From positions 64,001-128,000 of the IMG/VR virus record IMGVR_UViG_3300021400_001148: 64,000 bases of DNA; one strand, written 5' to 3'. Positions 55,871 through 57,727 of the stretch are shown one piece after another. The position numbers and the translations under genes are program-made. The first letter of the stretch is position 1, and every line of letters begins with the position of its first letter. Below the pieces are notes generated by a model that was given only the letters and a program-made list of their open reading frames with translations, was not told the DNA's origin and did not search any database. This stretch comes from a virus (lineage: Duplodnaviria; Caudoviricetes).

Positions 55871-56575
55871 TTATTCTTCTAAGAGTTTTTTTAATTCAGC
55901 AGTCTTCTTTGGTAGCCCTAATTTTTCAATATGCTTTCTGATACTGGTTTCACTAACCCCTAATTCCCTAGATACAGCACTACGGTTGTAATCGTTCTCT
56001 TTTAATATTTTTATAAATTCTTCGTCACTTAAATTTATTTTGGCTCTTTGCTTTGATGCGCAAGAAAGACAATATATTGCTGCCTTTGTTTTGACCTCTC
56101 TCCCACAGATGGGACAATACTTTTTTTCTTTTTTACTTACCCCACAATAATTTTCTGTTTGGCTGTGGCAGTTGGGACATAAGATTTGCAAGTTTTCTAA
56201 TCTATTATCTTTATGGTTACCGTTTTTATGGTGTAACTGACACACCAGTGGTTTTCCTTGCCATTCACTAACACCGCATATCTCGCATTTATTCTCCTTA
56301 AAACCGTCCTTAATTAATCTGCTTTTTAATTTCGAAGAAGTAATGAATGTGCCATCTATAGTCAAGTATTCCTCGGTTTTTTTCTGTAGTTTTGGAATTT
56401 CTTTGGGGTGGAAAGTGAAATGCTGATTTGTGATATTGTACAATTCCATTTTCCTTTTAAGTGTACTAACATTATTTCCTTGGCATGGAATTCCTAATTT
56501 CCGCAAAGTTTCTTGATAAGAAAAACTGGCATTCACTGCCGCTCTTATGTCGCTTTCATTCCAATTGTATTTCAT
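55871..56575 (-). CDS. free-standing HNH endonuclease with Zn ribbon and C-terminal HTH
   Basis: CEICG..LHHKNGNHKDNRLENLQILCPNCH, CPICG..CLSC and SAVSRELGVSETSIRK. Confidence 0.9.
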   Translation of the reverse strand: MKYNWNESDIRAAVNASFSYQETLRKLGIPCQGNNVSTLKRKMELYNITNQHFTFHPKEIPKLQKKTEEYLTIDGTFITSSKLKSRLIKDGFKENKCEICGVSEWQGKPLVCQLHHKNGNHKDNRLENLQILCPNCHSQTENYCGVSKKEKKYCPICGREVKTKAAIYCLSCASKQRAKINLSDEEFIKILKENDYNRSAVSRELGVSETSIRKHIEKLGLPKKTAELKKLLEE

Positions 56576-56593
56576 ATTTTAACACTATTTAAG

Positions 56594-56665
56594 TTGCCCC
56601 ACCCCGAGTTGAACAGGGATTACTGGTGCCAAAAACCAGTGTAATTACCGTTATACGATAGGGCA
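56594..56665 (-). tRNA. tRNA-Gln(UUG), CCA not encoded
   Basis: Acceptor TGCCCTA/TGGGGCA; anticodon arm CTGGT-TTTTGGC-ACCAG; T-loop GTTCAA. Confidence 0.85.
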
Positions 56666-56727
56666 GTCAGTTATAAATAGTGTTAGTACGAATTTTTTTT
56701 ACTTTATTTACAAACATTTTAGTGTTG

Positions 56728-57264
56728 TGGTCCCTGCAGGACTTGAACCTGCGACCCACTGATTCGTACCACTATAGCTTTCGCTACCAAAATATTGGGT
56801 CTCCCACCCAAGAATCGCTTGTTACAGCTTATTTTGTTTGTGGTCTGGACTCTATCTTAACCATATTGAAATCTTGCAAGATATAAAGTATGACTTAATG
56901 CTGGGTCTCACAGCCATCGGCCACATAGGTTCTCTTTCCTCATACTCTATAATTTCAACTTAGGTTCCTCCTGTATAGTCTCTACACACTGTCTATAAAC
57001 TTAACCGTCTATTATCATTTAAGAAATTCGAACAACTTACAATTTCCATAGATAATATGGAGAACTTAATTTTTTACGGTTAAAGTTTAATAACATTGGC
57101 TCGGTATTAGCATGAGCGAGGTTCATCCATATGATGATTTTCTTAACCTTCTTTTAGCTTTAACCGAATTAGGGAGGTTCTACATCCGGAGTTTCCCCCG
57201 GTGCATACAATTTCTTTTTTCAAAGAACTAATCAGTTGCTCTGACCAACTGAGCTTAAGGGACC
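56728..57264 (-). tRNA. intron-split tRNA; anticodon uncertain, possibly degenerate
   Basis: 5' half GGTCCCT..AGCTCAGTTGGTCAGAGCAACTGA (57264-57232); 3' half AATCAGTGGGTCGCAGGTTCAAGTCCTGCAGGGACCA (56764-56728). Confidence 0.8.
56765..57228 (-). ncRNA. group I intron (IC3-like), no ORF
   Basis: Core elements P AATTCGG, Q AATACCGAGCC, R GTAGAGACTATA, S AAGATAGAGTCC; ACCAC/GTGGT pairing; terminal G. 5' boundary uncertain by a few nt. Confidence 0.85.
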
Positions 57265-57271
57265 ATCTATG

Positions 57272-57727
57272 TTACTCGCCGTCAGCGATGCGGTCGATGT
57301 ATCTTTCATTGTGTTCCGCCACACCGTTCGCTTTCCTGTCGAACTCCCTTATCTGGGAATAGAACTCGCCCAATACATCCTGAAGGTCGGCCAGCCTCTT
57401 CCTCAGGGACTTCACAGCATTCAGATAGGCATTCCTCTCGGCCTTGGCGCGGGAAATCCTCTTGCCCTTTTCCACATCGAAGGTATCCCCCGGGGCTACA
57501 GTAGCGTATCCTCTGGCAGTTCCAGTGACATCCCCACCCGTCATACGCTTTCCGTCAATCCATCCGTAAAAGTAAAGCCCCTCCATGATGTTGGTTATGG
57601 GACGAGGCAGTATCGCCTGATAATCGATGACAGTCACAACCAGATTCTTCTTCTCGTCGACATAAGTCTTGGGAGCGTAGGTCCGCAGCTTGATGCTGTT
57701 GCGGTTAAATTTGGTAAACTTCTTCAT
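57272..57727 (-). CDS. conserved phage hypothetical protein
   Basis: P.D.FDVEKGKRISRAKAE motif. Confidence 0.65.
   Translation of the reverse strand: MKKFTKFNRNSIKLRTYAPKTYVDEKKNLVVTVIDYQAILPRPITNIMEGLYFYGWIDGKRMTGGDVTGTARGYATVAPGDTFDVEKGKRISRAKAERNAYLNAVKSLRKRLADLQDVLGEFYSQIREFDRKANGVAEHNERYIDRIADGE

What the first reader, a model, noticed from the sequence alone, without database searches (positions are those of the whole stretch)
56728..57264. Group I intron in a phage tRNA with an unresolved anticodon
Seen: a ~465-nt ORF-less intron with IC3-like P/Q/R/S elements inside the anticodon loop. Three readings are possible. (a) Terminal G at 56765 and 5' site after 57227 give loop UU-AGU-AA, an unusual A34 Thr-type anticodon on a body lacking the Thr C2-G71 pair. 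(b) A 5' site after 57231, where a P1 U-G wobble fits best, with the same 3' end gives a collapsed loop, as if a CAU tRNA had lost 4 nt. (c) That 5' site with a 3' end after GUGG gives UU-ACG-AA (Arg). There is also an extra A near position 9. Known: the Azoarcus tRNA-Ile intron sits after position 36.
Basis: partly seen in the sequence, partly recalled or inferred. Interest (0 to 1): 0.7.

Follow-up and report, generated by a model that had tools for sequence, protein, structure and literature searches.

The report
Group I intron in broken phage tRNA-Ile
A self-splicing (group I) intron sits in a gut-phage tRNA gene that descends from tRNA-Ile2 (anticodon CAU) but has truly lost four bases of its anticodon loop, so the intron looks intact while the tRNA it interrupts most likely can no longer decode.

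Summary
A minus-strand tRNA (57264..56728) is split by an ORF-less 466-nt insert with all group I core helices. Rfam's group I model misses it, but 22 IMG/VR phage loci share its core. Nearly all of them lie in tRNA anticodon loops.

In 16 of 16 unique relatives, the conserved intron tail GUGG-UANG| and a 7-nt loop place the 5' site after a U.G wobble. The guide triplet covaries with the exon end.

By that rule the three closest homologs are tRNA-Ile2(CAU) genes split after U36, the classical Azoarcus position. ARAGORN's "Arg(ACG)" call comes from the intronic UACG tail.

This copy lacks CUCA (positions 32-35), has an extra A after position 8/9, and has guide GUA instead of GUG. Five assemblies carry the deletion, including one from a second study, so it is not an assembly error. 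A close relative in a bovine-gut run has CTCAT and GUG.

Canonical splicing (U57231.G57208; omega-G 56765) would give a 72-nt RNA with a 3-nt loop. Reading (b) is therefore supported. Readings (a) and (c) are disfavoured.

First-reader notes in this scan report similar phage tRNA introns on other genomes.

The parts
57231..57264 (-). tRNA 5' exon: acceptor 5' strand GGTCCCT, 3-nt connector TAA (one A too many), D arm, anticodon stem ACTGA, and a single loop nucleotide U57231
   Evidence: Homologs L024, L018 and L015 read TA-GCTC and ...GA-CTCAT|.
56765..57230 (-). Group I intron, 466 nt by the family's splice-site rule, with no ORF
56728..56764 (-). tRNA 3' exon: AA, anticodon stem TCAGT, variable loop GGGTC, T arm, acceptor AGGGACC and discriminator A. 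CCA is not encoded.
57206..57208 (-). Internal guide triplet GUA (GUG in the three CAU homologs and in the X5 relative). G57208 pairs with U57231 as the U.G wobble, and U57207 pairs with A57232.
   Evidence: (57206 T>C on the + strand in X5).
57209..57211 (-). P10 guide AUU, complementary to the first three 3'-exon bases AAU (56764-56762)
57212..57227 (-). P1 extension hairpin UUCUUU-GAAA-AAAGAA
57186..57201 (-). P2 hairpin CCGGGG-GAAA-CUCCGG. Its sequence varies but stays paired across the family.
57173..57177 (-). P3 5' strand CCUCC, pairs with 56967-56971 GGAGG
57163..57168 (-). P4 5' strand UUCGGU (P element), pairs with 57100-57105 ACCGAG (Q element)
56977..56982 (-). P7 5' strand within the R element GUGUAGAGACUA
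56847..56851 (-). P7 3' strand within the S element AAGAUAGAGUCC
56840..56843 (-). P9.0 5' strand CCAC, pairs with 56769-56772 GUGG. G56769 is the omega-G that reading (c) would need.
56775..56786 (-). P9 hairpin UAGC-GAAA-GCUA
56765..56768 (-). Intron tail UACG. G56765 is omega-G by the family rule. ARAGORN misreads these four bases as an anticodon.

Best explanation
This is an IC3-type group I intron from a family that is common in tRNA genes of animal-gut phages. It sits at the classical 36/37 position of a tRNA-Ile2(CAU, lysidine-type) gene.

In this phage lineage the 5' exon has lost the four loop bases C32-U33-C34-A35 and gained an A between the acceptor and D stems. The intron's guide triplet has changed from GUG to GUA. 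The intron itself is intact.

If the intron splices, the sites set by its own structure are U57231.G57208 in P1, and omega-G 56765 positioned by P9.0 and P10. These join ...ACUGA-U to AA-UCAGU.... The product is a 72-nt tRNA-shaped RNA whose anticodon arm ends in a 3-nt loop (UAA), so it cannot decode. The gene is therefore most likely a recently inactivated tRNA that still carries a working or near-working selfish intron.

Shown here: family membership, splice-site rule, Ile2 ancestry, that the deletion is real, and an intact allele in a relative. Inferred: that splicing still occurs and that the product has no function.
For: Family and fold:
- 22 IMG/VR loci share the R element and align along the whole core.
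- All core helices pair in this copy, with no deviation at conserved intron columns.
- RF00028 scores the nearest homolog, L024, at E 3.9e-9.

Splice-site rule:
- In 16 of 16 unique relatives, the tail GUGG-UANG| plus a 7-nt loop puts the 5' site after a U that forms U.G.
- The last three exon bases pair 3 of 3 with the triplet before UGC. Four triplets (GUG, GAG, GGU, GAA) covary with four exon ends (CAU, CUU, ACU, UUU).
- P9.0, P9 and P2 also covary.

Ancestry:
- L024, L018 and L015 give the loop CUCAUAA.
- Their ligated exons are 89% identical over full length to the E. coli gene that PGAP annotates as tRNA-Ile with anticodon CAT.
- A 364-kb phage record (G001) carries an intron-less allele with CUCAUAA.

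Deletion:
- Alignment to L024 shows exactly CTCA missing.
- The short form stands, with no differences, in contigs of X1, X3, X7 (a second study) and L153.
- The relative in X5 has 'TGAG put in behind 57231' on the + strand (CTCA on the tRNA strand), and G at the guide position 57206.

Site choice:
- The P1 register for site (b) folds at -3.4 kcal/mol, against +2.3 for (a).
- P10 AAU/AUU forms only from omega-G 56765.
- ARAGORN finds no tRNA in product (b).
Against: - No spliced product was seen. The RNA-library contigs (X3, X7) cover only unspliced sequence, and contigs cannot show a 72-nt RNA.
- P1 keeps only two exon pairs (U.G and A-U), against three in every relative, so splicing may be poor or lost.
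- The acceptor, D, anticodon and T stems of this copy are all still perfectly paired, with compensated changes relative to the homologs. This fits a very recent loss, but also fits continuing selection for some other use.
- Readings (a) and (c) each give a formally acceptable 7-nt loop that ARAGORN accepts.
Confidence: 0.72

Rival explanations
1. Reading (c): the loss of four exon bases is offset by using G56769, 4 nt upstream, as omega-G. The intronic UACG then becomes exon and the loop reads UU-ACG-AA, a tRNA-Arg(ACG) on an Ile2 body.
For: ARAGORN calls exactly this, in the gene and in the ligated product. The deletion is 4 nt and the tail is 4 nt, preceded by a G, so the loop length comes out right.
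Against: - G56769 is the closing pair of P9.0 (CCAC/GUGG). That helix pairs 4 of 4 in 13 of the 16 relatives as scored, and covaries to CUAC/GUAG.
- In every relative where the tail can be tested it is intronic. L011, L012, L017 and L023 would otherwise have loops of 8-9 nt.
- P10 does not form with UAC.
- ARAGORN gives the same 'Arg(acg)' call for the three intact CAU homologs, so the call comes from the tail and not from this copy.
- The D loop has U, not A, at position 20. From established knowledge, A20 is the main bacterial ArgRS identity element beside C35.
- The phage already has an ordinary tRNA-Arg(ACG) at G000 351799-351873.
Confidence: 0.08
2. Reading (a): the 5' site has moved to U57227 and omega-G stays at 56765, giving the loop UU-AGU-AA, a tRNA-Thr(AGU).
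For: This reading keeps the family's omega-G and a 7-nt loop. The exon end AGU can make two wobble pairs with the guide GUA. ARAGORN accepts the product. The phage has no other Thr tRNA.
Against: - U57227 is the first base of the P1 extension hairpin and pairs with A, not G.
- Forcing U57227.G57208 costs +2.3 kcal/mol, against -3.4 for the homologous register.
- The site is 4 nt inside what is intron in L024.
- The body is Ile2-like with G2-C71. From established knowledge, ThrRS uses C2-G71. A34 outside Arg(ACG) is not deaminated by bacterial TadA.
Confidence: 0.04
3. The intron no longer splices at all. With P1 reduced to two exon pairs and the guide mutated, the transcript stays as an unspliced precursor, so both gene and intron are dead at this site.
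For: P1 has 2 of 3 exon pairs here, against 3 of 3 in all 16 relatives. Only unspliced sequence appears in the RNA-library contigs.
Against: The U.G wobble, the P1 extension, every core helix, P9.0, P10 and omega-G are all intact. Contigs cannot report a small spliced RNA, so the lack of a joint carries no weight.
Confidence: 0.2
4. Assembly or sequencing error: the real phage has CTCAT and an ordinary tRNA-Ile2.
For: The missing bases lie next to a sequence repeated in many introns of the same community, where assemblers break.
Against: The short form was assembled five times by different pipelines, including from a run of another study and year. All five show no differences across the junction and carry the extra A. 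The guide change at 57206 travels with the deletion, whereas the X5 relative has both the intact loop and GUG.
Confidence: 0.02

Closest known systems
Azoarcus-type group I intron in bacterial tRNA-Ile2(CAU), class 'Ile2.5Ug', subgroup IC3 (Williams 2020 preprint, doi 10.1101/2020.01.27.920355)
   Same: - Same host tRNA type and same insertion point, after U36 (homologs L024, L018, L015).
- Same P1 logic, CAU paired with GUG and a U.G wobble.
- Same R-element core, GTAGAGACTA-N11-CCTAAG. That pattern also retrieves seven bacterial intron-split CAU tRNAs.
   Different: - It is phage-borne.
- It is 466 nt rather than about 190-215 nt, because of insertions in P5, P6, P8 and P9.
- Its 3' end is GUGG-UACG|, like the bacterial Leu and Arg introns, and not ...ACAAACCGG| as in the bacterial CAU introns.
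- In this copy the exon lacks C32-A35 and the guide reads GUA.
Bacterial and cyanobacterial tRNA-Leu(UAA) and tRNA-Arg(CCU) IC3 introns (classes Leu.3Ug and Arg.5Ug)
   Same: They share the core and the 3' end: a GNRA-capped P9 hairpin, then AGUGG-UA[ACU]G|. Phage relatives of this intron sit in Leu(UAA) at the same 34/35 site.
   Different: The host tRNA differs. The phage family also uses site 33/34 in Leu(UAA), and sits in Lys(UUU), Arg(UCU) and Ser(UGA).
Group I introns of phage protein genes (T4 td/nrdB/sunY type; Jug jumbo gut phages, PMC12880540)
   Same: They are self-splicing group I introns carried by phages. Large gut phages hold many of them.
   Different: Those introns interrupt protein-coding genes. 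A 2014 review states that all phage introns seen up to then were in protein genes, despite the many phage tRNA genes (PMC3984707). The Jug phage paper does not mention tRNA at all.

Membership tests
Group I intron (IC3-type tRNA intron) | Conserved core helices P3, P4, P6, P7, P8 and P9, with P/Q/R/S elements in the right order | tested here: met
   P3, P4, P5, P7, P8, P9.0 and P9 all pair fully. For P6 only the best candidate helices were listed, not scored. The helices map onto the RF00028 consensus through the L024 alignment. The R-element pattern is shared with bacterial tRNA introns.
Group I intron (IC3-type tRNA intron) | Significant match to the curated covariance model (Rfam RF00028) | tested here: inconclusive
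   There is no hit on this copy at E<=10. The closest homolog, L024, scores 41.5 bits with E 3.9e-9, and L017 scores 31.1 bits; both are below the gathering score of 50. This copy's long P6 and P8 insertions are the likely cause.
Group I intron (IC3-type tRNA intron) | 5' splice site after a U that forms a U.G wobble in P1 with an internal guide sequence | tested here: met
   This holds in 16 of 16 relatives, with a covarying guide. In this copy U57231.G57208 and A57232-U57207 pair, but the third pair is G x A.
Group I intron (IC3-type tRNA intron) | Terminal G (omega-G) positioned by P9.0 and P10 | tested here: met
   G56765 follows the conserved tail. P9.0 is CCAC/GUGG and P10 is AAU/AUU.
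Group I intron (IC3-type tRNA intron) | Self-splicing with guanosine | not testable with these tools
   The RNA-library contigs show only unspliced sequence, and contigs cannot report a small ligated RNA.
tRNA-Ile2 (CAU, lysidine type) | Body like annotated tRNA-Ile(CAU) genes | tested here: met
   Ligated L024 is 89.2% identical over 100% of its length to the E. coli tRNA-Ile with anticodon CAT. The exons of this copy align to the same gene apart from the indels.
tRNA-Ile2 (CAU, lysidine type) | 7-nt anticodon loop CU-CAU-AA | tested here: not met
   This copy lacks CUCA. The canonical product has the loop UAA, and ARAGORN finds no tRNA in it. The loop is present in L024, L018, L015, G001 and the X5 relative.
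tRNA-Ile2 (CAU, lysidine type) | Standard cloverleaf with a 2-nt connector (positions 8 and 9) | tested here: not met
   The connector is UAA, which ARAGORN draws as a bulge. The homologs have UA.
tRNA-Arg(ACG) | Loop NU-ACG-AA produced by the intron's real splice sites | tested here: not met
   It needs omega-G at G56769, which is paired in the covarying P9.0 helix, and no P10 forms. ARAGORN makes the same call on the intact CAU homologs.
tRNA-Arg(ACG) | A20 in the D loop (bacterial ArgRS identity element, from established knowledge) | tested here: not met
   The D loop AGUUGGUCA has U at position 20.
tRNA-Thr(AGU) | 5' splice site at U57227 with a U.G wobble | tested here: not met
   U57227 pairs with A57212 in the P1 extension. 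The forced register costs +2.3 kcal/mol.

The most novel reading that the evidence does not exclude
The locus is not dead. One option is that the exon deletion and the 4-nt intronic tail together re-code the gene: a shift of the 3' splice site turns intron UACG into exon, making an Arg(ACG)-reading tRNA on an Ile2 body. The other option is that the spliced, anticodon-less, tRNA-shaped RNA is kept for another use, for example as a decoy for host enzymes that target tRNA. Either would explain why all four stems are still perfectly paired.
Probability: 0.08. Interest if true: 0.8.

Novelty: new member of a known kind. Interest (0 to 1): 0.42.

Why it matters
The kind is well known: an IC3 group I intron after U36 of tRNA-Ile2 is one of the four classical bacterial tRNA introns. 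Three points add something.

First, the intron belongs to a family with a nearly invariant core. That family sits in at least five tRNA types (Ile2, Leu-UAA, Lys-UUU, Arg-UCU, Ser-UGA) and at three loop positions in large animal-gut phages. A 2014 review recorded phage introns only in protein genes, and I found no later paper in the held library that describes phage tRNA introns.

Second, the family gives a clean natural retargeting series. Four guide triplets match four exon ends. This fixes the splice sites without experiment and shows that the guide triplet tracks the exon end at each site.

Third, there is a practical warning. The conserved intronic tail UANG makes ARAGORN report false Arg(ACG), 'Stop' and 'Pyl' tRNAs, which could be mistaken for suppressor tRNAs in phage recoding surveys.

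The locus itself is a dated snapshot of an intact intron outliving its host gene, with the intact allele still circulating in a related strain.

Tried and rejected
- Rfam scans of the window at gathering and at E<=10 gave no group I hit on this copy. RF00028 over the whole phage record hits three other places, not this one.
- blastn of the locus against the GenBank phage collection found no match.
- Exact-pattern scans for the 5' exon in IMG/VR found nothing. Scans for the reconstructed intact junction found nothing in IMG/VR or JGI metagenomes. A gapped pattern that accepts both forms found only the short form, once (L153).
- The family R element, searched exactly in 185,579 species genomes, found nothing.
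- No spliced joint appeared in the RNA-library contigs. Contigs cannot show a 72-nt RNA, so this is not evidence either way.
- The joint 56764->57232 in the DNA run X5 has AACAG between the sides and only 24 matching letters per side. I read it as an unrelated intron-less tRNA (loop CUGUUAA, Asn-GUU), not as splicing.
- Folding the P1 region alone predicts only the extension hairpin, with z = -0.5. The exon-guide pairs are too few to show up in a free fold.
- A synteny search with the upstream 1.2 kb in five related phage records matched only the tRNA exon.
- ARAGORN's labels 'Stop(tta)' (L016, L026) and 'Pyl(cta)' (L012) were rejected. By the family splice-site rule they are Lys(UUU), Arg(UCU) and Leu(UAA).
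- A third CTATAGTGGTA match in the genome, at 266,993, lies in coding-like sequence with no tRNA, and I treat it as chance.

Full report
WHAT IS THERE

The window is bases 64001-128000 of a 354,809-bp IMG/VR phage record. On the minus strand, 57264..57231 and 56764..56728 form the two halves of a tRNA. The acceptor stem is GGTCCCT/AGGGACC, the D stem GCTC/GAGC, the anticodon stem ACTGA/TCAGT and the T arm GCAGG-TTCAAGT-CCTGC. An insert of about 460 nt separates the halves. It holds no minus-strand ORF of 50 aa or more. A normal tRNA-Gln(UUG) follows at 56665..56593. Default ARAGORN and Rfam see only the Gln gene.

IS THE INSERT A GROUP I INTRON?

Rfam RF00028 gives nothing here, even at E<=10. 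However, the R-element string GTGTAGAGACTATACAGGAGG occurs in 22 IMG/VR loci. These align with the insert along the whole core, with BLAST E-values down to 5e-49.

Nearly all of these loci lie inside tRNA anticodon loops. RF00028 scores the closest relative, L024, at 41.5 bits and E 3.9e-9, and L017 at 31.1 bits. Both are below the gathering score of 50. The L024 alignment assigns P1, P3, P4, P5, P6 and P8 to the blocks shared with this copy.

In this copy the P1 extension, P2, P3, P4, P5/5a/5b, P7, P8, P9.0 and P9 all pair completely. At the 160 columns conserved in at least 15 of 16 relatives, this copy differs at only two, and both are in the 5' exon.

A looser R pattern, GTAGAGACTA-N11-CCTAAG, retrieves at least 120 bacterial loci. 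These are intron-split tRNA-Leu(UAA), Arg(CCU) and CAU tRNAs and others, that is, the known IC3 tRNA introns. Many have the same 3' end...GAAAGC-N-AGTGG-TA[ACT]G|. The insert is therefore a member of the bacterial-type IC3 tRNA intron group. Its expansions in P5, P6, P8 and P9 probably defeat the Rfam model.

WHERE ARE THE SPLICE SITES?

All family members end in GUGG-UANG (GUAG-UAAG in two). If omega-G is the last G of this tail, the number of loop bases left in the 3' exon is fixed. A 7-nt loop then fixes the 5' site without any reference to the guide sequence.

In 16 of 16 unique relatives this site follows a U. That U pairs with a G, and the last three exon bases pair 3 of 3 with the three bases just before the conserved UGC that leads into P2. 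Four triplets (GUG, GAG, GGU, GAA) match four exon ends (CAU, CUU, ACU, UUU). All loops come out as CU-NNN-AA.

P10, formed by the 3'-exon start and the bases 5' of the triplet, has 2-4 pairs in 14 of 16. The GUGG of the tail pairs with CCAC just after P7 to form P9.0. It covaries to CUAC/GUAG in L027 and to CUAC/GUGG (U.G) in L016 and L022. P9 (UAGC/GCUA against UAGU/ACUA) and P2 also covary.

In L011, L012, L017 and L023, treating the tail as exon would give loops of 8-9 nt, so the tail is intronic.

WHAT IS THE tRNA?

By this rule the three relatives with the same exons as ours (L024, L018, L015) read ...GA-CUCAU|intron|AA-UC.... The anticodon is CAU and the intron lies after U36.

ARAGORN's 'Arg(acg)' for all three, and for ours, arises from the intronic UACG tail. 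Its 'Stop' and 'Pyl' calls for L016, L026 and L012 are equally spurious.

Ligated L024 is 89.2% identical over its full length to the E. coli gene that PGAP annotates as tRNA-Ile, whose anticodon is CAT. It shares the acceptor stem GGCCCCU/AGGGGCC. A 364-kb phage record (G001) has an uninterrupted allele with the loop CUCAUAA. Intron-split CAU tRNAs of beta-proteobacteria have near-identical D arms and loops. This is the classical 'Ile2.5Ug' setting (Williams 2020).

WHAT IS DIFFERENT IN THIS COPY?

Aligned to L024, the 5' exon lacks exactly CTCA...GAGCAACTGA----T|TAGTTCTTTG against ...GAGCAGCGGACTCAT|TAGTTCTTTG. It also has TAA instead of TA before the D stem. The guide triplet is GUA instead of GUG.

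The homologous 5' site is therefore after U57231, with U57231.G57208, A57232-U57207 and G57233 x A57206. P10 (AAU with AUU) and P9.0 keep omega-G at 56765.

The ligated product has the anticodon arm ACUGA-UAA-UCAGU, and ARAGORN finds no tRNA in it.

Reading (a) needs U57227, which pairs with an A inside the P1 extension. The constrained fold is +2.3 kcal/mol, against -3.4 for the homologous register.

Reading (c) needs G56769, which is paired in P9.0, and no P10 forms. The body also lacks A20, and the phage already has an ordinary tRNA-Arg(ACG).

IS THE DELETION REAL?

Logan contigs of four runs were laid on 56500-57500.
- X1 is DNA from a 2013 gut metagenome and is probably the source sample. 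It covers 56967-57500 with no differences.
- X3 is an RNA library of the same sample. It holds a 747-nt contig over 56967-57500 with no differences.
- X7 is an RNA library from another study (2017). It holds a 284-nt contig over 56970-57253 with no differences.
- The ENA contig L153 carries the same junction and the extra A.
- X5 is bovine-gut DNA from a third study and holds a close relative, with 15 substitutions and 8 gap positions over 57152-57500. The relative has TGAG inserted behind 57231 on the + strand, which is CTCA on the tRNA strand. It also has 57206 T>C, which restores the guide to GUG, and changes at 57249-57255 that remove the extra A.

Reconstructed from the difference table, the relative's D loop is 4 nt longer (AGTCACTTGGTCA). 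I could not inspect that contig directly.

The short loop is therefore a true allele, seen in two studies. An intact-loop allele with a matching guide circulates in a related strain.

No spliced joint was seen, but contigs cannot show one.

INTERPRETATION

The simplest account is a recent inactivation of a phage tRNA-Ile2 gene by a 4-nt loop deletion, plus a 1-nt insertion. The guide change is either drift after the loss or part of the same decay.

The intron is untouched. Its relatives are under selection in working tRNA genes of the same phage community and share long identical blocks. For example, the P5 extension of this copy is identical to that of the Leu(UAA) intron in L028, so exchange between copies may also keep the intron intact.

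All four tRNA stems still pair perfectly, which argues that the loss is young. It also leaves a small chance of a new use: Arg-ACG by a shifted 3' site, or an anticodon-less tRNA-like RNA. I put the dead-tRNA reading, with or without residual splicing, at about 0.72.

LITERATURE

- IC3 introns in bacterial tRNA-Ile2, Leu, Arg and fMet are classical, and 17 further settings have been reported in bacteria (doi 10.1101/2020.01.27.920355).
- A 2014 review states that all phage introns then known were in protein-coding genes, despite many phage tRNA genes (PMC3984707).
- The paper on 360-402-kb 'Jug' gut phages reports about 18 group I introns per genome in protein genes and does not mention tRNA (PMC12880540).
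- Three full-text searches found no paper describing group I introns in phage tRNA genes. This is an absence in the held library only.
- First-reader notes of this scan report similar introns in phage tRNA genes of this and other genomes. They are unchecked.

VERDICT

This is a known kind in a new setting (phage) and a broken state.

Noticed in passing
L011-L032 (IMG/VR loci): A family of group I introns with a nearly invariant core sits in phage tRNA genes for Leu(UAA) (sites 33/34 and 34/35), Lys(UUU) (34/35 and 36/37), Arg(UCU), Ser(UGA) and Ile2(CAU). The guide triplet matches each exon end. ARAGORN mislabels several as Stop(tta), Pyl(cta) or Arg(acg), because the intronic tail UANG can be read as part of the loop.
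   Followed up: partly
G000 1-99 and 354711-354809 (outside the window): The record's 99-nt 'direct terminal repeat' lies wholly inside the P6 region of a family intron. The exon before it, at the record's end, is a tRNA-Lys(UUU) 5' half. The exon after it, at the record's start, cannot form an acceptor stem with that half. The repeat may therefore join two different intron copies, and the 'DTR, 100% complete' label is doubtful.
   Followed up: partly
G000 1208-1364 and 165938-166058 (outside the window): Two further tRNA genes carry short anticodon-loop inserts of 71 nt (in a class II, Leu-like tRNA) and 46 nt. Both are far too short for a group I core. ARAGORN labels them Glu(ttc) and Phe(gaa). 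Rfam's tRNA model scores the second at 53.5 bits.
   Followed up: no
G000 202540-202737, minus strand (L001): This is the best RF00028 match in the phage record, at 47.8 bits and E 5.9e-12, just under the gathering score. An earlier first-reader note calls it a tmRNA T-loop intron.
   Followed up: no
window 55871-56575, minus strand: A 234-aa ORF just downstream of tRNA-Gln has weak, sub-threshold matches to HNH_3 (E 8e-4) and to HTH domains. It may be a free-standing homing-type nuclease next to the ORF-less intron.
   Followed up: partly
L024 1400-1503 and 693-758: The P5 extension of the closest homologous intron contains a tRNA-like segment (RF00005, 30.8 bits). A RAGATH-1 hammerhead-like match (50.3 bits, gathering score 56.3) lies about 550 nt upstream of that tRNA.
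   Followed up: no
L156 1458-1532 (G001 about 296.8 kb): A 364-kb phage record carries an intron-less tRNA-Ile2(CAU) very like the exons here. An intron-split tRNA-Leu(UAA) lies about 600 nt away.
   Followed up: partly
window 57241-57256, as seen in run X5: The related strain with the intact CAU loop appears to have a 13-nt D loop (AGTCACTTGGTCA), 4 nt longer than in this copy and the other homologs. The tRNA may therefore be under relaxed constraint in that strain too. This is reconstructed from a difference table only.
   Followed up: no
L017 and L019: These phage loci hold dense tRNA arrays (10 or more genes), and L017 also holds a tmRNA gene (RF00023, 106.7 bits), next to intron-split tRNAs.
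   Followed up: no
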